A DNA stretch of 64,000 bases. Origin: an uncultured Planctomycetota bacterium (GTDB lineage Bacteria; Planctomycetota; Planctomycetia; Isosphaerales; Isosphaeraceae). The notes beneath the pieces are model-generated. The model saw nothing but the letters and a program-made list of their open reading frames with translations, ran no database searches and was not told where the DNA came from. A program made the position numbers and the translations under genes. Where the stretch lies: positions 256,001-320,000 of the forward strand of contig CAWJTV010000036.1 in assembly GCA_963845755.1 (NCBI GenBank), written 5' to 3'. Shown one piece after another: positions 7,400-19,773 of the stretch. Position 1 is the stretch's first letter; every line of letters starts with the position of its first letter.

Positions 7400-8505
7400 T
7401 CAAGAAGGGCCCGATCGGGAGACCAGGATATCGACCGGGATCTTCAGCTCACCGACGAGGGGATGATCGGTTTTCAAGACGATCTCGCCCTCGATCGGCC
7501 CCGCGGCGGTGCCGGGGGGCACCTTGACCGCCAAGCGATAGCGGCCCTTCATGCCCGGCCGATCGTCCGGCAAGACGTCCACGTCCACGTGCTCCGGCTT
7601 GGACACGACCTGGAAATGCGTCTCCTTGCCGCCACGGACCATCAGGGTCAGGTCACGGGAAGTCGCCTTCCCGGCGGGTGACATCGCGCATCCGCAACCC
7701 CGGTGGGACGATGCTGATGGGTCCGATCACTTTCCCCCCGACGGAGACCCTCACCTCCGGCCGCTTGGGATGGTCGGTCTGGACGACCACCTCATCGAGG
7801 AATTGGCCCTGGGGCATGCCCGGCTTGACCTCGACGAGGATGCTAAAACCCTCCTCGACTTTGAGAGACTTGGCTTCATCGGGCGTCAACGGCCTGACCG
7901 TGGTGACGATCCGGTCCGGCTTCGAAGTCGTCACCTTCGTCACCTTCAGCTTGGGCCGGTCCAGCGAGTAAACCGCGAACATCCGCCCGTTCGTCTCTTC
8001 GTTGGAGATCGTCGGGAACTGGATCATCTCCGGGGGGTAGACGACCACCGGTGGGTGGACCTTCCCCTTGATCGTCAGATGGAAGGTGGGGTGGAGCGGG
8101 TCGTTGGTCCCGAATTCCGCCCCCTGCGAATATTCGTCATGGAACTCCTTGGTGTTCCATTCCAGGTCGATCGTGGTCGACTTGCCGGGCTCGACCACCG
8201 CCTTCTGGTTACCCTCGAGCTTGGCGATCGTGCAGGAGCATGTCGGCTTCCCGATCATCCACAACTCCAGGGTCGCCTCGCCGGTGTTCTTGATCCGCCA
8301 GGTGTGCATCCCCTTGTCATGCTGCGACATCTTGTCGAAATCGTAGATCGGATCCTGGTCGATCTCCACCTTGGGCTGGGGCCCCCGGCTTTCATTGACC
8401 GGGGTCTTGGGCGCAGGCCTCAGGATCCGGCAGGTACAGGGGCACTAAGGTCGCCGCCGCGGTCAGGAAGACCACGGCCACCGCCAAGATCACCCACCGT
8501 AACAT
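7400..8505 (-). CDS. DUF1573 domain-containing protein (paralog), frameshifted (~8390, ~7680)
   Basis: Three ORF pieces colinear with the neighbouring paralog (MLRWVILAV; NTGEATL..CSCT; LKTDHPLVGELKIPV). Confidence 0.75.
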
Positions 8506-8911: not shown

Positions 8912-9178
8912 ATGAACAAGCTCACGATCGAGGTCTGGGACGCGACGGGCAATAAGAAGCAGTTAGTTGAGCTGCCGTCGGACGCCCCGGTGAACCGGGT
9001 GATCGCCGTCCTCGTCGAGAAGATGAACCTGCCGCGATACAGCCCGGACGGGCAGTTGATGAGTTACAAGTTCCACCACAAGGCCAGCGGGCGGCAGTTG
9101 CTCGACGACCAGACCCTGGCCTCGGCCGACATCCACAGCGGCGACGTGCTGCGGCTCCAGCCGGAGATCACCGCCGGG
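8912..9178 (+). CDS. Ubiquitin-like beta-grasp protein (EsaB/YukD-like), reading through in frame into E1
   Basis: 89-aa unit ending LLDDQTLASADIHSGDVLRLQPEITAG, ubiquitin-like pattern; no stop after the Gly in this sequence. Confidence 0.75.
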
Positions 9179-9253
9179 CGCGAGCCGGCGACGGCCGGGT
9201 GTCACCCGTCGGCCCCGAGTGCCCACTCTGAGGAAACGGGGAGGGGCGCGACC

Positions 9254-10447
9254 TTGAGCGACGTGATCCGGATCGAGGACGCGGAGACCGCGGCGGGGCG
9301 GGAGGACCGGTTCGCTCGGTTCCGGCTGATCAGTTGGTGGGACCAGGAGCGGCTGGCCGGTGCGCGCGTCCTGGTCATCGGCGCGGGGGCGCTGGGCAAC
9401 GAGATCCTCAAGGACCTGGCCCTGCTGGGCGTGGGCCGGGTCTTCGTGGCCGATCGCGATCGCGTGGAGAACTCGAACCTGTCGCGCTCGATCCTTTTCC
9501 GGGAGCGCGACTGCGGCCGGCCCAAGGCCGAGGTCGCCGCCGAGCGGGCGGCCGAGATCTATGCCGGGATCCGCGTCCGGCCGTTTTCCGGCAACGTGGT
9601 CTACGACCTGGGGCTGGGGATCTATCGATGGGCCGACGTGATCCTCGGCGGCCTGGACAACCGCGAGGCCCGGGTCGCGATCAACCTGGCGGCGGCGTGC
9701 GCCGGCAAGGTCTGGATCGACGGGGCGATCGAACGGCTCGACGGCGTCGCACGGGTCTTCGACCCGGCCACCGGGCCCTGCTATGAGTGCACCATGGGCG
9801 AGAACGACTGGAAAATGCTCGAGGCCCGGCGCAGTTGTGCCCTGCTCTCCCGCGGCGAGATGGAGCAGGGCAAAGTGCCGACGACCCCCACGACTGCCTC
9901 GATCGTTGCCGGGGTGCAGGTCCAGGAGGCGGTGAAGTATCTCCACGGCCTGGATGTCATCGCCGGACAGGGCTTCGTCTTCGACGGCAGCCATCACCAG
10001 AGCTACCTCGTGAGCTACACTCGCAAGGAGGATTGCCCGGCGCACGAAGCCGATGAGCCGGTCGAGGTCCTCACCGCGCGGGCCGACGCGATCCGTGTCG
10101 GCGACCTTCTCGAGCGCGTTCGCTCCGACCTGGGCCCCGAGGCGGTGCTCGAGACCGGCCGGGACCTGCTCGCCTCGCTCCGCTGCGAAGACTGCGGCGA
10201 GGGCGAGCCGATCTTCGCGTCGCTGGGCAAGGTCACCGAGGCCCAGGGGCGGTGCCCGCGCTGCGGTCGCCCCCGCACGCCCGCGATGTTCCACACCATC
10301 GACGGTCGCCACCAGGACCTCCTCGACAGGACCCTCGCCGAGATCGGGATCCCGCCGTGGGACGTTCTCGGCGGCCGCGCGGGGATGTTGCAGCGGTTCT
10401 ACGAGTTCGGCGGCGATCGCGGCGATGTCCTCGGTCCACTGAACTGA
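9254..10447 (+). CDS. E1-like ThiF/MoeB family adenylyltransferase with C-terminal extension
   Basis: GAGALGNE, DRDRVENSNLSR, DN, CYEC, candidate catalytic Cys in RRSC; extra CEDC/CPRC; GGAGG-like SD before TTG 9254. Confidence 0.9.
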   Translation: MSDVIRIEDAETAAGREDRFARFRLISWWDQERLAGARVLVIGAGALGNEILKDLALLGVGRVFVADRDRVENSNLSRSILFRERDCGRPKAEVAAERAAEIYAGIRVRPFSGNVVYDLGLGIYRWADVILGGLDNREARVAINLAAACAGKVWIDGAIERLDGVARVFDPATGPCYECTMGENDWKMLEARRSCALLSRGEMEQGKVPTTPTTASIVAGVQVQEAVKYLHGLDVIAGQGFVFDGSHHQSYLVSYTRKEDCPAHEADEPVEVLTARADAIRVGDLLERVRSDLGPEAVLETGRDLLASLRCEDCGEGEPIFASLGKVTEAQGRCPRCGRPRTPAMFHTIDGRHQDLLDRTLAEIGIPPWDVLGGRAGMLQRFYEFGGDRGDVLGPLN

Positions 10448-10662
10448 GCTGAGAGAATGTGGATGAATTGGATAGAAGTTTTCAAATCCGAGATTTGATG
10501 AACATCATGCTCGGTACGGGGACGACCGGCATTTCATTTTGAATCGAGATCTTCGCGGGCTCCGAGAGTGAGCGACGTGGGGGAAAGCGACTCGAGAAGG
10601 CGACGCGGTCAGGGCAGTTTACGTACTGGAAACTGAAAACCGGACACTGAAAACTGGACAAC

Positions 10663-11778
10663 ATGGACGAGCTCGATATCCGGCTATTGAAGCGTGAGGA
10701 GCTGCCGCAGGAGGTCTTCCCCGGCGGGCGGAGCGAGCCGTTCCGCGTGTTCTTCACGCCCGAGGTCCACGCCGCGCTCTGGAAGCATGCCTGCGAGGAT
10801 ACCTCGGTCGAGATCTGCGGGGTGCTGGTCGGGAGCTGGCATCGCGACGAGGTCGGGCCATTCGTCAAGATCGTCGACTCGATCCGCGGCGAGGGGGCCA
10901 AGACCCAGTTTGCCGAGGTGACGTTCACCCACCAGACCTGGGCGAAGATCAACAGCGAGATGGATACGAAATTCGCCGCGCTCAAGATCGTGGGCTGGTA
11001 CCACACCCACCCGGACTTCGGGATCTTCCTCTCGGATCGCGACCGGTTCATCCAGGAAAACTTCTTCTCCGGGCCGGGCCAGATCGCCCATGTGATCGAT
11101 CCGATCCGCAAGATCGAGGGGGTCTTCGTCTGGCAGAAGAACCAGCCGAGCCTCACCGAACACTTCTGGGTCGGCGACCGCATCGTGACCGGCCTGCCCG
11201 CCGGCGCGGAAGGTTCGGGCGAATCGGCCGGCGATCGTCGCCGAGGCGGGCCGACGGGCGGAGGGACAGGGACCGCACGAGCGCCGGGGTCCGCCGCGCA
11301 AGGCCGCCCCGACGACCCGCTCCCGCCCATGGGGCGGCTCCTGATTTATGGTGGTGTCTTCCTCGTCGGCTACCTGCTGGCTACGCTGTATTCGGGGTGG
11401 GAGCGCCAGCGATTCGTCGAGAGCATGCTGGCGAGCAACGGCGTCGCGTCTCTCCTCCGCCTGGGCCTTTCCGATCAGCTCGATCGATTGCAGCGCGACC
11501 TGGTGGGGGTCGGCGGACCGCTCGATGCCGCGCAGGCCAAGGCCCAGCAGGCGGATTCGGCATTCGGAGAGATTCGCGACCAGTTGAGGGGCGCCTCACG
11601 GCGGATCGAGGACATCAAGGTCCGGTATGGAAATACCGCGACCGAGGACGAGTACCTCCGCCGATTCCTGCTCGAGAAGTATGCCGAGACCGCGCGGGGC
11701 CGGGAGTCGTCGGCCCCGCCGGTCGCCAAGGATCCGCCGCCGTCGCCGGCTGCACCCACCGAGGCCAAGAAGCCATGA
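10663..11778 (+). CDS. JAB/MPN+ (Mov34) metallopeptidase with TM segment and C-terminal helical region
   Basis: EICGVLVG...GWYHTHPDFGIFLSDRD complete JAMM motif; hydrophobic LLIYGGVFLVGYLLATLY. Confidence 0.9.
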   Translation: MDELDIRLLKREELPQEVFPGGRSEPFRVFFTPEVHAALWKHACEDTSVEICGVLVGSWHRDEVGPFVKIVDSIRGEGAKTQFAEVTFTHQTWAKINSEMDTKFAALKIVGWYHTHPDFGIFLSDRDRFIQENFFSGPGQIAHVIDPIRKIEGVFVWQKNQPSLTEHFWVGDRIVTGLPAGAEGSGESAGDRRRGGPTGGGTGTARAPGSAAQGRPDDPLPPMGRLLIYGGVFLVGYLLATLYSGWERQRFVESMLASNGVASLLRLGLSDQLDRLQRDLVGVGGPLDAAQAKAQQADSAFGEIRDQLRGASRRIEDIKVRYGNTATEDEYLRRFLLEKYAETARGRESSAPPVAKDPPPSPAAPTEAKKP

Positions 11779-11847
11779 CCACGATCCCCCGTCGAGAGAT
11801 CGAGAGCCTGTGGAAGAATCGATTCAAGATCGCAAATTCGAGGTAGA

Positions 11848-11888
11848 AATAAATGTAATTTCTTCTGATATAGCAGATTACATTTATT
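11848..11888. repeat. AT-rich perfect 12-bp inverted repeat with 17-bp spacer
   Basis: AATAAATGTAAT (11848-11859) / ATTACATTTATT (11877-11888). Confidence 0.7.
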
Positions 11889-11950
11889 GAATCTTGAATC
11901 TCGAATGTTCCATTCGATCCCTTCGCGGCTTCCCAGAGGAGACCCGGCCC

Positions 11951-13021
11951 ATGTCCGCGCCCATGTCACAGGAGCCGCTCCGACTGACCGAGGAGGACCT
12001 GTTCGCCCCCAAGGTGGACGCGTTCCTGGACGAGCAGTCCATGCTGAGCCGGGCGCTGCCCGAGATCGAAACGCAACCGTGGATCCTCCGCGTGGTCTAC
12101 TCGAGCTACTTCTACCTCAGCCTGGCCAGCGGGCTGGGTGCGTTCGTGGGGTGGATGATCTTCGAGCCGTTCATCAGCGACCGGGAGATCGGCGAGAACT
12201 TGATCGGACTCCTGCTCTTTCCGACGGTCGCGGGCTTCGTGGGGCTGTTCCTGGGCGCGGCGGAGGGGATCATGTGCCGCAACCTGCCGCGGGCCGCGAT
12301 CAGTGCCTTGGTCGGACTGGGAATCGGCTTCGTGGGCGGCTTGATCGTGATCATCCCCGCCGGCATCATCTTCGCGATCATGAAAGGGATCATGTTCCGA
12401 TTCTGGACGAACCCCCAGAAAGGTGAGATGCCGACGGGCATCGCCCTTCTGATCTTCATGATGGGCCGGGGCGCGGCCTGGAGCCTGGCGGCGATCCCCG
12501 CCGGGATCGGCCAGGGGATCGCGCTACGTGAGTCGAAAGTGATCCTCAACGGCCTGCTCGGCGCCGTGCTCGGCGGCCTGTTGGGCGGCCTGGTGTTCGA
12601 CCCGATCTCCATCATCATCCCCCCGACCGATGGCGAGGCCTGGCTCAGTCGCGCCATCGGACTGACCCTGATCGGGCTCATGGTCGGCCTGTTCGTCGGC
12701 ATCGTCGAGCAATGGACCAAGTCGGCCTGGCTCCTGATGCGGGCCGGCCCGCTGGCCGGCAAGCAGTTCGTCATCTTCCGCAACCCGACCGTGCTGGGCA
12801 GCTCGCCCAAGGCCGAGGTCTACCTGTTCAAGGACGAGGCGATCGAACCGCGCCACGCCCTGATCCACGACCGCGGCGGCCGCTTCGAAATCGAGGACCT
12901 CAAGACGGCCGACGGGACCTACGTCAACGGCATCCCCGTCCAGCGGCAGATCCTCAAGTCCGGCGATCGGATCGTCCTCGGCAAGACCGTACTGGAATTC
13001 GCCCTTCGGGATAGTAAGTAG
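11951..13021 (+). CDS. Multi-pass membrane protein with C-terminal FHA domain
   Basis: About 6 Gly-rich hydrophobic helices, then LGSS...RHALI...DLKTADGTYVNG...GDRIVLG. Confidence 0.85.
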   Translation: MSAPMSQEPLRLTEEDLFAPKVDAFLDEQSMLSRALPEIETQPWILRVVYSSYFYLSLASGLGAFVGWMIFEPFISDREIGENLIGLLLFPTVAGFVGLFLGAAEGIMCRNLPRAAISALVGLGIGFVGGLIVIIPAGIIFAIMKGIMFRFWTNPQKGEMPTGIALLIFMMGRGAAWSLAAIPAGIGQGIALRESKVILNGLLGAVLGGLLGGLVFDPISIIIPPTDGEAWLSRAIGLTLIGLMVGLFVGIVEQWTKSAWLLMRAGPLAGKQFVIFRNPTVLGSSPKAEVYLFKDEAIEPRHALIHDRGGRFEIEDLKTADGTYVNGIPVQRQILKSGDRIVLGKTVLEFALRDSK

Positions 13022-13025
13022 AGTT

Positions 13026-13106
13026 TTCCGTGTTCCGTGTTCCGTGTTCCGTGTTCCGTGTTCCGTCTTCCGTGTCCGGTGTTCATTGACTGACCACTGA
13101 CCACTG
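13026..13106. repeat. Heptamer tandem repeats (GTGTTCC)n and (CACTGAC)n
   Basis: About 6 copies of GTGTTCC followed by ACTGACC units, intergenic. Confidence 0.85.
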
Positions 13107-13122
13107 AAAAAAGGACCACCCC

Positions 13123-13689
13123 ATGCCGATCTCGTTCTCGTGTTCGAAATGCGGCAAGAAGCTCAAGGCGCCGGACAGTGCGGCGGGCAAATCCTCGAAG
13201 TGCCCGCAATGCGGATCCTCGGTGACGTGTCCGGAACCGGTCTACGACGCAGAACTCGTGGAACCGCCCGGCGGCGTGGACCCCTACGGCGATCTCGACT
13301 CGGACAAGCCCTATGCCGTGGCCACTCCCGCCTCGTCCGCGGCTCCAGCGTCGGAGACCGACGGCCGTCGCCCCTGTCCGATGTGCGGCGAGATGATCGT
13401 GGCCACGGCCGCCAAGTGCCGCTTCTGCGGCGAAGTCTTCGACGCGACGCTCAAGAAGGCGAAATCCAAGAAGAAGAAGAAATATAGTTCGGATGAGGCG
13501 GACCTATCGACGGGGGACATCGTCGTTGGCCTGCTCTGCTCCGTGATCGGCTGTATCGCCGGGCTCGTCTGGATGATCCAGGGGAAGCCCAAAGGGCTAA
13601 AGATGGTGGGTTTGTCGATCGTCGCCGATATCGTGAAGTCGGTGATCTGGGCGATCATCCAATCGAATCAACACGGAGGCGCGGGGTAA
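13123..13689 (+). CDS. Double zinc-ribbon protein with C-terminal TM hairpin
   Basis: CSKC..CPQC and CPMC..CRFC pairs; Lys stretch; two hydrophobic segments. Confidence 0.8.
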   Translation: MPISFSCSKCGKKLKAPDSAAGKSSKCPQCGSSVTCPEPVYDAELVEPPGGVDPYGDLDSDKPYAVATPASSAAPASETDGRRPCPMCGEMIVATAAKCRFCGEVFDATLKKAKSKKKKKYSSDEADLSTGDIVVGLLCSVIGCIAGLVWMIQGKPKGLKMVGLSIVADIVKSVIWAIIQSNQHGGAG

Positions 13690-13833: not shown

Positions 13834-14670
13834 ATGATCATTGGACTGGCGTCACCCTGTGTTGCCTCATCACTCGATGCGGGTCTGGACAAGATCAAGA
13901 CGTTCCTGTCCGAAGCGTCCTCCCAGGGCGCGGCGATCGTGTGTTTCCCGGAAGCCTATCTCCCCGGCTTGCGGGGAGTGGGTATTGACGTGTTACCCTT
14001 CGGTCAATCGGAGACACGCGCGGGTACTCGAGGTTGTGGCGCAGTCGGCGCGAGCGTATTCGGTCGCCGCGATCCTCGGGACGGAACGGCTCACGGGTGC
14101 GGGTCGGCAGATTGCCGCCTATGTCATCGACGCCCAGGGCCGGATTCAGGGATACCAAACCAAGAACCAACTGGACCCATCCGAAGATCCGTTCTATGTG
14201 CCGGGAAACACCCGGCAACTCTTTGAAATCGACGGGTTGAAGTTCGGCGTGGCGATCTGTCATGAGGGCTGGCGCTATCCCGAGACGGTGCGCTGGGCGG
14301 CGGCGCGGGGCGCCAGATCGTCTTTCATCCGCAGCACACGGGGAGCGATCAGGAAGGCGTCTGTCCCACGCAGTGGGGCGCGGCCGGCGGACCCTACTAC
14401 GAGAAGGCCATGATGTGTCGCGGCCTGGAAAACACGATCTACTTCGCCAGCGTCAATTATGCGTTGCGCTTCCAGGAATCGGCGACAAGTCTTATCGACC
14501 CGTCGGGCCAGTGTCAGGCGTACTTACCCTATGGGCAGGAAGGCGTCCTGGTGCAGGCCATCAACGTCGAGGAAGCAACCGGTTTGCTCGCCAAGCGGTA
14601 CGCACCCGAGCGTTATCAAACCTCCGAGGAAACGGCCCAGAAGCCCATGGCGGCGATGCAGAGGGAATGA
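13834..14670 (+). CDS. Carbon-nitrogen hydrolase (nitrilase superfamily), frameshifted twice
   Basis: VCFPE, QTK and AICHEGWRYPE (E-K-C triad) spread over three frames; ENTIYFASVN. Confidence 0.85.
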
Positions 14671-14747: not shown

Positions 14748-14841
14748 TGATTCCGAATTCCGGATTCCGGATTCCGAATTCCGGATTCCGGATTCCCGAA
14801 TCCTTCTTTATCCGGAATCCGGAATCGGGAATCCGGAATCC
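14748..14841. repeat. Heptamer repeats (TTCCGGA/TTCCGAA)n arranged as an inverted pair
   Basis: ttccgaattccggattccgg... followed by the complementary ggaatccggaatc...; lies between convergent genes. Confidence 0.8.
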
Positions 14842-18179: not shown

Positions 18180-19773
18180 ATGGGCGTCCAGAAAGCGAGG
18201 CGGATCATGAGGTTGATGTCGCGGGCAGGCTGGCTTGGGGTTGTCGTGGGGCTCGCTGGACTCGTCCCGCGGGCCGGTGCCGCGGAGGGACCCGAGCCGA
18301 TCATCTACGCGATCCGATTCCCGGCGGCCGGCCAGCATATCGCCGAGGTCGAGGCCACGGTCCCGACTCAAGGGCGCCCGGAGATCGCCCTCATGATGGC
18401 GGTCTGGTCGCCGGGATTCTATCGCCTCGAGGACTACGCCCAGAAGATCCAGGGCCTCTCGGCACGGGCCACGAACGGGGCGGCGCTGGGGGTCGAACAT
18501 CCCCAGAAGAACCGCTGGACCATCACGAACACGGGTGGCGGTCCGAAGGTGGTCGTGACGTATCGGCTCACTTGCGATCGCCGGTCCGTCACCACGAACT
18601 GGGTCGGCGAGGACCTCGTCGTCTTGAACGGGGCGGCAACTTGCGTCACGCTGGTCGAGCCGGTCCGCCGTCCTCATGAAGTCCGGCTCGAGTTGCCGGC
18701 TCGTTGCAAGCGTTCGGCGACGGCGATGGATCCGGCCCCCGACGGCCTGCCGAACCACTATCGCGCCGAGGACTATGACACGCTGGTCGATTCGCCGATC
18801 GTCGCCGGAGACCTGTCGATCCACGAGTTCTCGGTCGATGGCAGTCAGCACATCCTCGCGGATGCCGGCGAGGTCGGCCAATGGGACGGCGAGCTCGCGG
18901 CGCGCAATCTGGAGAAGATGGTCGGCGAGGCGCGTCGCTTCTGGGGTTTCTTGCCGTTCCGGCGATACGTCTTCCTCAACGTGTTCCGCCCCGGCGGCGG
19001 CGGGCTGGAGCACAAGAATTCCACGCTGTTGACCGCGAGTCCCCGAGGCGGGAGGGAGCCGGGCTCCGTGCGCTGGCTCTCCTTCATCAGCCACGAGTAT
19101 TTTCATGCGTTCAACGTCAAGCGACTGCGGCCGATCGAGCTGGGACCGTTCGACTACGAGCACCCGCCGTTCAACCAAGAGCCTCTGGATCGCCGAGGGC
19201 CTCACCACCTATTTCGGCGACCTGATCATCAGCCGCGCCGGGCTCGCCAGGCCGAACGACCTCCTGGGCATGCTGTCCTCGCACATCGGGCAACTCCAGA
19301 ACTCGAAAGGACGGCTCGTCCAGACGCTCGAGCAGGCGTCCCTGGACGTCTGGGCCTCCGGGACTTCCGGAGTGGGACGGGACCCCGCCACCAAGCTCAG
19401 CTACTACGTCAAGGGGCCCGTCGTCGGCTTCCTGCTCGACGCCCGGATCCGTCGCGCGACCGGCGGCAAGAAGAGCCTGGATGATGTGATGAGGCACGCC
19501 TACAATCGCTATTCGGGCGACCGTGGTTTCACTCCGGAGCAGTTCCGCGCCGTAGCCGAGGAAGTTGCTGGTGTCGACCTCAAGGAGTGGTATCACAAGG
19601 CGATCGCCTCGACCGAGGAGCTGGATTACCAGGAGGCTCTCGACTGGTTCGGCCTGCGGTTCGCCCCCTCGGACGATCCGTCCAAGGGCTGGAAGCTCGA
19701 GATCCTCGCGGAGGCCACGGAGACGCAGAAAGCACATCTTCGGGCCTGGGCCGAGGCCGCTGGCGGATCTTAG
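18180..19773 (+). CDS. M61 family (glycyl) aminopeptidase, frameshifted ~19170
   Basis: WSPGFY, LVDSPI, GGLEH, SHEYFHAFNVKRLRP, LWIAEGLTTY, SYYVKG. Confidence 0.9.

What the first reader, a model, noticed from the sequence alone, without database searches (positions are those of the whole stretch)
8912..13689. Membrane-associated ubiquitin-like conjugation operon (Ubl, E1, JAB-TM, TM-FHA, Zn-ribbon-TM) with no E2 in the locus
Seen: five co-oriented units. The JAB has a full JAMM motif plus a TM; the other two partners are membrane proteins; there are no thiamine, molybdopterin or cysteine-synthesis genes and no E2 or RING gene. Known: bacterial Ubl-E1-E2-JAB systems exist, including in planctomycetes and in antiphage Bil/CBASS-type systems, and FHA domains read phospho-Thr. 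Inference: reversible Ubl tagging at the membrane linked to Ser/Thr kinase signalling rather than sulfur transfer; the Lys-rich stretch of the Zn-ribbon protein (KKAKSKKKKK) is a candidate acceptor or adaptor.
Basis: partly seen in the sequence, partly recalled or inferred. Interest (0 to 1): 0.78.

Follow-up and report, generated by a model that had tools for sequence, protein, structure and literature searches.

The report
Front half of split ubiquitin-like operon
These genes encode the tag, activating enzyme, tag-cutting enzyme and two membrane partners of a predicted ubiquitin-style protein-tagging system of planctomycete bacteria; the carrier enzyme and likely ligases that seemed to be missing lie elsewhere in this genome and directly downstream in most relatives.

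Summary
The genes are real, but 'no E2' holds only for the locus. The window has four reading frames, not five: the YukD-type Ubl runs without a stop into the E1, which keeps its own start. A canonical E2 and two Prok-RING genes lie on contig C11. In 48 of 56 related loci with enough flank the E2 sits in the same block; the other 8 genomes have it elsewhere. The same 7 of 36 family genomes carry both halves. The E1 ends in a domain whose top seven structural matches are eukaryotic E1 E2-binding domains, which argues against sulfur transfer. The Ubl has an invariant EITAG end followed by variable tails, so the JAB likely trims it. The kinase link is not supported: the FHA lacks the phospho-threonine Arg and Ser in 80 of 80 loci, and kinases are not enriched nearby. 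The Lys patch often turns to Arg. The kind was predicted in 2011 (paper not held; recalled), and this scan noted the C11 half earlier. Conjugation and targets are untested.

The parts
8912..9178 (+). YukD-type ubiquitin-like protein, 89 residues, predicted mature end ...EITAG (Gly89)
   Evidence: PF08817 above cut-off; EITAG end in all 63 Ubls read in related loci, 9 of them with a stop right after it
9179..9253 (+). 75-nt spacer without an in-frame stop; makes Ubl and E1 one frame and holds the E1's G-rich ribosome site. Recent read-through or assembly error
   Evidence: A TGA lies 50 nt after Gly89, out of frame; in relative L058 the spacer is 73 nt and the aligned TGA lies at 48 nt, in frame
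9254..10447 (+). E1 enzyme: ThiF-type adenylation domain, predicted catalytic Cys309 (numbering of the 511-residue frame) and a C-terminal ubiquitin-fold (E2-binding-type) domain with a Zn-ribbon insert (10046-10444)
   Evidence: PF00899; Cys309 kept in 39 of 40 aligned E1s; model pLDDT 92, top seven VIA-align hits are E1 UFDs, Z 7.5-9.2
10663..11778 (+). JAB/JAMM metallopeptidase with one predicted membrane helix and a helical C-terminal part
   Evidence: PF01398 and PF14464 above cut-off; complete JAMM motif; hydropathy
11951..13021 (+). Polytopic membrane protein (about six predicted helices) with a C-terminal FHA-fold domain that lacks the phospho-Thr-binding Arg and Ser
   Evidence: PF00498; model matches GarA/OdhI FHA at about 1 A rmsd; alignment to GarA and motif counts
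13123..13689 (+). Double Zn-ribbon protein with a basic patch and two hydrophobic segments; same layout as the system's RING-TM protein but without the RING
   Evidence: Zn-ribbon hits; similarity to the C11 ZnR-TM and RING-TM genes; core membrane part in 60 of 73 aligned loci, the window included

Best explanation
The locus is the front half of a membrane-bound Ubl-E1-E2-RING gene block whose back half (ZnR-TM, RING-TM, RING-protease, E2, DUF2752) lies on contig C11, and the two halves likely still work together to attach the Ubl to proteins at the inner membrane. Steps. (1) Inferred: the membrane-anchored JAB cuts the Ubl precursor after Gly89, whatever follows it (a short tail, a ZnR-TM protein or, here, the E1), and may also remove conjugates. 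(2) Inferred from conserved residues: the E1 adenylates Gly89 and forms a thioester at Cys309. (3) Predicted from fold: the E1's ubiquitin-fold domain recruits the C11 E2, which has an intact HPN...C site. (4) Inferred: the membrane Prok-RING proteins act as E3s. (5) Least certain: the RING-less ZnR-TM proteins and the TM-FHA are adaptors, sensors or substrates that bind without phosphorylation, and the RING-fused trypsin-like protease may cut tagged membrane proteins. Shown here: the genes, their residues, their linkage in relatives and their co-occurrence. Not shown: any reaction, target or biological role.
For: E2 and two RING genes on C11 next to a paralogue of the window's ZnR-TM. Gene order Ubl-E1-JAB-TMFHA-ZnR-RING-RING/protease-E2-DUF2752 recurs: E2 in 48 and RING in 50 of 56 loci with at least 8 kb downstream. 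All 8 E2-less loci have a 78-93% identical E2 elsewhere in the genome. The same 7 of 36 family genomes carry the TM-FHA and the C11-type E2. The three loci nearest to the window E1 are the three nearest to the C11 E2. Six close relatives have the same split and share flank genes with the window, so the split is inherited. E1 C-terminal domain matches Uba2/Uba3/SAE2 UFDs. E2 catalytic motif in 54 of 54. Invariant EITAG end with variable tails.
Against: No reaction was tested. The genome has a second Ubl-E2-E1-JAB operon on C34, so cross-use of that E2 is not excluded. The C11 RING-protease gene has one frameshift in this assembly. The Ubl ends Ala-Gly, not Gly-Gly. Foldseek gave no hit at E<=0.001 for the E1 domain (best 0.021, also a UFD) and only three VIA-align rows reach Z 8. 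The E1-E2 similarity correlation (rho 0.74) partly reflects shared ancestry. E3 activity of Prok-RING_1 domains is a prediction. The 80 loci were the best 80 of 217, so they lean to close relatives.
Confidence: 0.78

Rival explanations
1. The system is an anti-phage or other conflict system like Bil: it conjugates the Ubl to invader proteins, and the variable ZnR-membrane genes are sensors. This concerns the role and is compatible with the chemistry of the best explanation.
For: Patchy spread: cognate E2 type in 24 of 401 phylum genomes and 7 of 36 family genomes. ZnR-TM genes vary from 0 to 4 copies with swapped membrane parts. The characterised bacterial conjugation systems CBASS and Bil are anti-phage (PMC10557695, passages).
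Against: Flanks are stable and ordinary in close relatives (DUF1573, cytochrome c554, zwf/opcA). Apart from generic E1 and protease-domain hits, no component matched a PADLOC model at 1e-5. Most parts are membrane-bound. No survey of defence islands was made.
Confidence: 0.3
2. One reading: reversible tagging coupled to Ser/Thr kinase signalling, with the FHA reading phospho-Thr and the Lys patch as acceptor.
For: The domain has a true FHA fold. The genome is kinase-rich (398 kinase-like HSPs). Kinases and E2s are both reported in planctomycetes (PMC5493775, passage citing Arcas 2013).
Against: G-S instead of G-R in 80 of 80 loci, no S-x-x-H, and Asp in place of the following Asn in most, while 8 of 14 FHA domain hits in this genome keep both G-R and S-x-x-H. 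Kinase in 6 of 47 loci against 35% of genome tiles. Lys and Arg interchange in the patch.
Confidence: 0.08
3. The front half is decaying or has been re-wired after the split: it works with the C34 E2, or not at all.
For: Lost Ubl stop; one frameshift in the C11 RING-protease gene; a complete second operon on C34.
Against: All catalytic residues are intact. The split is shared by six relatives, and each keeps its E2 at 90-93% identity. The C34 E2 is only about 33% identical to the C11 type and has its own Ubl and E1. Broken frames also occur in unrelated window genes, as expected of assembly errors.
Confidence: 0.1
4. Sulfur transfer: the Ubl is a ThiS/MoaD/CysO-type carrier and the JAB releases the product.
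For: The E1 belongs to the ThiF family; a JAB with a sulfur carrier occurs in CysO-type pathways (recalled).
Against: E1 scores far below the NCBIfam ThiF and MoeB cut-offs (131.9 against 275 bits), ends in a UFD-like domain and travels with E2 and RING genes. The genome has two separate MoeB/MoeZ-like E1s.
Confidence: 0.04

Closest known systems
Prokaryotic Ubl/E1/E2/JAB/RING operons predicted by Burroughs, Iyer and Aravind 2011 (Mol Biosyst 7:2261; Pfam Prok-RING_1, PF14446). Paper not held; content recalled and seen only as cited in PMC7159879 and PMC10557695
   Same: Ubl, E1, UBC-type E2, JAB and Prok-RING_1 genes in one block; by my recall planctomycetes were among its examples.
   Different: Here the block is split in two and the Ubl reads into the E1. 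I could not check whether the TM-FHA, the ZnR-TM array, the RING-protease or the E1's UFD were described there.
Caldiarchaeum subterraneum ubiquitin operon (PMC5654768, PMC6043591; passages and one section read)
   Same: Pro-Ubl trimmed by an Rpn11-like JAMM, E1 with a C-terminal Ubl domain, Cys E2, RING E3; shown to conjugate.
   Different: True ubiquitin ending Gly-Gly and a small RING protein. Here a YukD-type Ubl ending Ala-Gly and membrane-anchored JAB and RINGs; the only proteasome-family match in this assembly is HslV.
Bil (BilABCD) anti-phage systems (PMC10557695, PMC11601603; passages and first part read)
   Same: Separate Ubl, E1, E2 and JAB; Cys-based relay; precursor trimming.
   Different: BilD has tandem adenylation domains and lacks a UFD; Bil operons encode no E3. 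Here one adenylation domain plus UFD, two RINGs and several membrane proteins.
Bub systems (PMC11601596; passages read)
   Same: A Ubl fused to a pathway enzyme (BubAB) is released by the JAB.
   Different: Bub uses Tyr and Ser oxyesters and DUF6527; here E1 and E2 keep Cys.
Second operon of this genome (C34: Ubl-E2-E1-JAB-TM)
   Same: Paralogous Ubl (42%), E1 (44%) and JAB (38%).
   Different: E2 inside the core; E1 of that type in most family genomes, whereas the window type is in 7 of 36; no TM-FHA or ZnR-TM hit in the C34 stretch fetched.

Membership tests
Prokaryotic Ubl/E1/E2/JAB/RING operons (Burroughs 2011; features recalled) | Ubl with a conserved C-terminal Gly | tested here: met
   PF08817; EITAG end in all 63 Ubls read
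Prokaryotic Ubl/E1/E2/JAB/RING operons (Burroughs 2011; features recalled) | E1 and JAB with intact catalytic residues | tested here: met
   Cys309 in 39 of 40 E1s; complete JAMM motif here and in the eight commonest variants, 54 of 66 JABs
Prokaryotic Ubl/E1/E2/JAB/RING operons (Burroughs 2011; features recalled) | UBC-type E2 and Prok-RING_1 genes belonging to the system | tested here: met
   Met in trans here (C11) and in cis in 48 and 50 of 56 related loci; not in the window locus itself
Prokaryotic Ubl/E1/E2/JAB/RING operons (Burroughs 2011; features recalled) | Ubl conjugation to a protein through E1, E2 and RING | not testable with these tools
   Needs biochemistry
Bil (BilABCD) | E1 with tandem adenylation domains and no UFD; no E3 gene | tested here: not met
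   Single ThiF domain plus UFD-like domain; RINGs linked; BilD model only 27.9 bits
Bil (BilABCD) | Protection from phage | not testable with these tools
   Needs phage challenge
Bub | E1 and E2 without catalytic Cys; DUF6527 protease | tested here: not met
   Cys kept in E1 and E2; no DUF6527 hit among operon proteins scanned
Type II CBASS | E1-E2 fusion (Cap2) | tested here: not met
   E1 and E2 are separate; PADLOC E1-E2 hits cover only part of the ThiF domain, at most 51 bits
Type II CBASS | CD-NTase as the conjugated protein | not tested
   No CD-NTase search was run; the block has its own Ubl
ThiS/ThiF, MoaD/MoeB sulfur carriers | E1 above ThiF/MoeB family cut-off; Gly-Gly carrier; cofactor genes nearby | tested here: not met
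Phospho-Thr-binding FHA domains | G-R and S-x-x-H binding residues (recalled; basic residues also per PMC9355967 passage) | tested here: not met
   G-S in 80 of 80; E-P-R-H or variant, against G-R-H and S-R-R-H in GarA
Type VII secretion YukD/EsaB | Neighbourhood of FtsK ATPase and WXG100 genes (PMC1779556, passage) | tested here: inconclusive
   None recognised by eye in the frames of five loci; no family search was run

The most novel reading that the evidence does not exclude
A complete bacterial E1-E2-RING cascade that works at the membrane and is closer in design to eukaryotic Ubl pathways than Bil or CBASS (UFD-bearing E1, HPN-type E2, RING E3s). Its specificity is set by a swappable set of RING-less Zn-ribbon subunits fused to different membrane domains (a core two-helix part, RDD, CD225, DUF4190, TM2). 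A phosphorylation-independent FHA scaffolds them, and a RING-fused protease makes it a tag-and-cut pathway for membrane proteins without a proteasome.
Probability: 0.3. Interest if true: 0.8.

Novelty: new member of a known kind. Interest (0 to 1): 0.48.

Why it matters
The papers I could read describe bacterial operons with RING E3s as predicted but uncharacterised (PMC10557695, passages), and my eight answered literature searches (one of them on FHA domains) listed no experimental study of one. This block gives a full parts list with testable residues: cut site Gly89, E1 Cys309, E2 Cys95, JAMM residues, and a built-in specificity control in the paralogous C34 system. A cultured relative has the block intact (Lacipirellula limnantheis, L070). 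A positive result would show three-enzyme, RING-dependent tagging at a bacterial membrane. The window's own oddity, no E2, is only a rearrangement.

Tried and rejected
E2-independent tagging: rejected. Split as an assembly artefact: rejected, shared with relatives. A dedicated Ubl-E1 fusion as the novelty: real fusions exist (19 of 35 hits among proteins of 281-895 residues; 2 of 63 loci), but the one here looks recent or erroneous. Sequencing runs: two small-share holders, no RNA holder listed. Laid contigs did not cover the junction with an identical read; one contig about 85% alike lacks two bases there, which fits but does not settle the matter. Complex prediction of E1 with E2 was not available, so binding was not modelled. 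The protein atlas gave no answer. Promoter and terminator scan was at chance level. A translated comparison of flanks was too noisy and was replaced by protein queries. Foldseek on the TM-FHA model listed only FHA-domain proteins, so the membrane part stays unassigned. Burroughs 2009, 2011 and 2012 are not held; they and their supplements may already show this gene order. Look-up of earlier scan notes by the TM-FHA sequence was empty.
Full report
1. Observation. The stretch 8912-13689 holds four co-oriented frames. The first, 8912-10447, carries a YukD-type Ubl (residues 1-89) and a ThiF-family E1 in one frame. Then come a JAB with a complete JAMM motif and one hydrophobic segment, a polytopic membrane protein with a C-terminal FHA, and a double Zn-ribbon protein with two hydrophobic segments. 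The gaps between the frames are 215, 172 and 101 nt. Flanking frames scanned are DUF1573, cytochrome c554, nitrilase and trypsin-like.

2. The missing E2. The genome (14.3 Mb, 49 contigs, 88% complete) has two UQ_con genes and three Prok-RING_1 genes above cut-off. One E2 sits in a separate Ubl-E2-E1-JAB operon on C34. The other sits on C11 behind a paralogue of the window's ZnR-TM, a RING-TM and a RING-trypsin gene, and before DUF2752. Of seven family orthologues of the window E1, five show both halves as one block and two end at a contig edge. A scan of GTDB with the TM-FHA alignment found 217 relatives and kept the best 80; the record titles name Planctomycetota. Of 56 with at least 8 kb downstream, 48 hold the E2, 50 a RING, 48 the protease, 45 DUF2752 and 56 a ZnR gene. 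The 8 without E2 all have a 78-93% identical E2 elsewhere in the genome.

3. The halves belong together. Among 60 relatives, the TM-FHA (E<=1e-30) and the C11-type E2 (E<=1e-40) occur in the same 7 of 36 family genomes; one genome of another family has a 47% E2 without a TM-FHA hit. The one same-genus genome has neither. Across 39 intact loci, identity to the window E1 tracks identity to the C11 E2 (rho 0.74), and the three nearest loci are the same for both; kinship inflates this. Six close relatives have the same split and share flank genes with the window, so the rearrangement is inherited. The C11-type E2 is found in 24 of 401 phylum genomes.

4. E1. The Cys in RRSC (Cys309) is kept in 39 of 40 aligned E1s and both Zn sites are conserved. 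The last 133 residues fold with pLDDT 92. The top seven VIA-align matches are the ubiquitin-fold, E2-binding domains of SUMO and NEDD8 E1s (Z 7.5-9.2), above the next rows at Z 5.7 or less. Foldseek ranks the same domains first but only at E 0.02-0.05. The characterised bacterial BilD lacks this domain (PMC10557695, passage). The E1 is well below the ThiF and MoeB cut-offs, and the genome has two other MoeB-like E1s (label from my reading of the sequences). The E2 has H-P-N...C in 54 of 54.

5. Ubl. All 63 Ubls read end their conserved part in EITAG. After it come no residues (9), a short tail (45), longer tails (3), a Zn-ribbon (3, two with the membrane part) or an E1 (2); one was not classed by the script. 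A protein search limited to 281-895 residues gave 35 hits, of which 19 join Ubl and E1. An invariant Gly before free tails is the pattern of a precursor cut by the JAB, as shown for Caldiarchaeum Rpn11 (PMC6043591, PMC5654768, passages) and BubAB (PMC11601596, passages); for this system it is inference. The read-through here looks recent or erroneous: relative L058 has a 73-nt spacer with an in-frame TGA where the window has 75 nt and the TGA out of frame. The E1's own TTG start is conserved. Public runs could not settle it.

6. FHA and kinases. The domain has an FHA fold (about 1 A rmsd to GarA). Against GarA, G-R-H becomes G-S-S, S-R-R-H becomes E-P-R-H and S-L-N-G becomes T-A-D-G. G-S holds in 80 of 80 loci (75 parsed, 5 read by eye); none of them has S-x-x-H, whereas 8 of 14 FHA domain hits in this genome keep both motifs. 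FHA domains lacking the basic residues can bind partners without phosphate (PMC9355967, passages). A kinase lies in 6 of 47 loci of 20 kb or more, against 231 of 655 tiles of 21 kb in this genome (different genomes and a looser threshold for the tiles). The nearest kinase hit in the window is 23 kb away. The kinase link has no support.

7. ZnR-TM. The basic patch has at least four Lys+Arg in 70 of 76 first copies, at least four Lys in 45 and no Lys in 5, which points to selection for charge. A better-kept Lys lies in the second ribbon (Lys98; 107 of 110). In 66 loci with a downstream RING the copy number is 1 (40), 2 (17), 3 (5), 4 (1) or 0 (3). Of 110 aligned copies, 63 have the window's membrane part; Pfam assigns RDD to 10, CD225 to 4, DUF4190 to 2 and TM2 to 1. 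The RING-TM has the same two ribbons with the RING between them, and the E2 carries a C-terminal Cys-pair ribbon. I infer that the ribbons are a shared docking module and that the RING-less copies are swappable adaptors, sensors or substrates.

8. Mechanism. Most likely (0.78): the JAB exposes Gly89; the E1 activates it and hands it through its UFD to the C11 E2; membrane RINGs direct it to Lys residues of membrane-associated proteins; the JAB may reverse this. The only proteasome-family match is HslV beside HslU, so the outcome is more likely local regulation or cutting by the RING-fused protease than proteasomal turnover. Every chemical step is inferred. The role is open: patchy spread and variable subunits suit defence (0.3); stable ordinary flanks and a membrane build suit envelope quality control or signalling.

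9. Literature. Read: PMC10557695, PMC11601596, PMC7159879, PMC8195603, PMC5654768, PMC1779556, PMC11354881, PMC9355967, PMC5493775, PMC3969565 (passages); PMC6043591 (passages and section 6); PMC11601603 (first of six parts). No supplements were read. Burroughs 2011, the paper cited for bacterial RING-type E3 operons, is not held; what I say of its content is recalled, and it may already show this block. The literature searches listed no description of this gene order and no test of it. Earlier notes of this scan reached the same split reading from the C11 side; I had formed it before looking.

10. Verdict. A real, conserved, likely functional system of a predicted kind. The headline oddity is a rearrangement, and the kinase reading fails its tests. 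What adds value is the UFD-bearing E1, the non-canonical FHA, the variable ZnR-membrane array and a clear set of residues to test. New member of a known kind; interest 0.48.

Noticed in passing
G000:C34:594486-598620 (L035 9485-13620, minus strand): Second, paralogous Ubl-E2-E1-JAB-TM operon; its E1 type is found in most family genomes, and a third Prok-RING gene lies 23 kb away at C34:621874.
   Followed up: partly
L072:6049-6402, L087:12071-12427, L108:12829-13185, L134:12167-12523: Zn-ribbon proteins of the block fused to CD225 (interferon-induced transmembrane protein family) domains, E down to 3.5e-27.
   Followed up: partly
P0025, P0026, P0028-P0035, P0037, P0038: Twelve proteins of 404-408 residues in which the same Ubl with its EITAG end precedes what looks like a lipoprotein signal (hydrophobic run then Cys) and an unassigned domain; cutting after the Gly would expose the signal.
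   Followed up: no
L037:12090-12779 (-), L038:5244-5945, P0005: Ubl fused to a Zn-ribbon-DUF4190 membrane protein; in 15 of 63 loci such a ribbon gene lies between Ubl and E1, fused or separate.
   Followed up: partly
G000:C31:71206-72261 and C11:1389415-1391019: Two more FHA proteins that match the TM-FHA from its last membrane helix onward and also lack the G-R motif.
   Followed up: no
window 10625-10660, 13026-13107, 14749-14841: Intergenic arrays of 7-base repeats (for example TTCCGTG, 8.4 copies) between and after the genes.
   Followed up: no
window 7400-8500, 13841-14670, 18180-19773; L036 10297-10317: Genes that appear split by frameshifts (DUF1573, nitrilase, the gene at 18180-19773, RING-protease), which suggests indel errors in the assembly.
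   Followed up: partly
L036 6510-14178: The C11 half sits between opcA (opposite strand) and zwf; intact relatives read E2-DUF2752-zwf-opcA, so the half was inverted as well as moved.
   Followed up: partly
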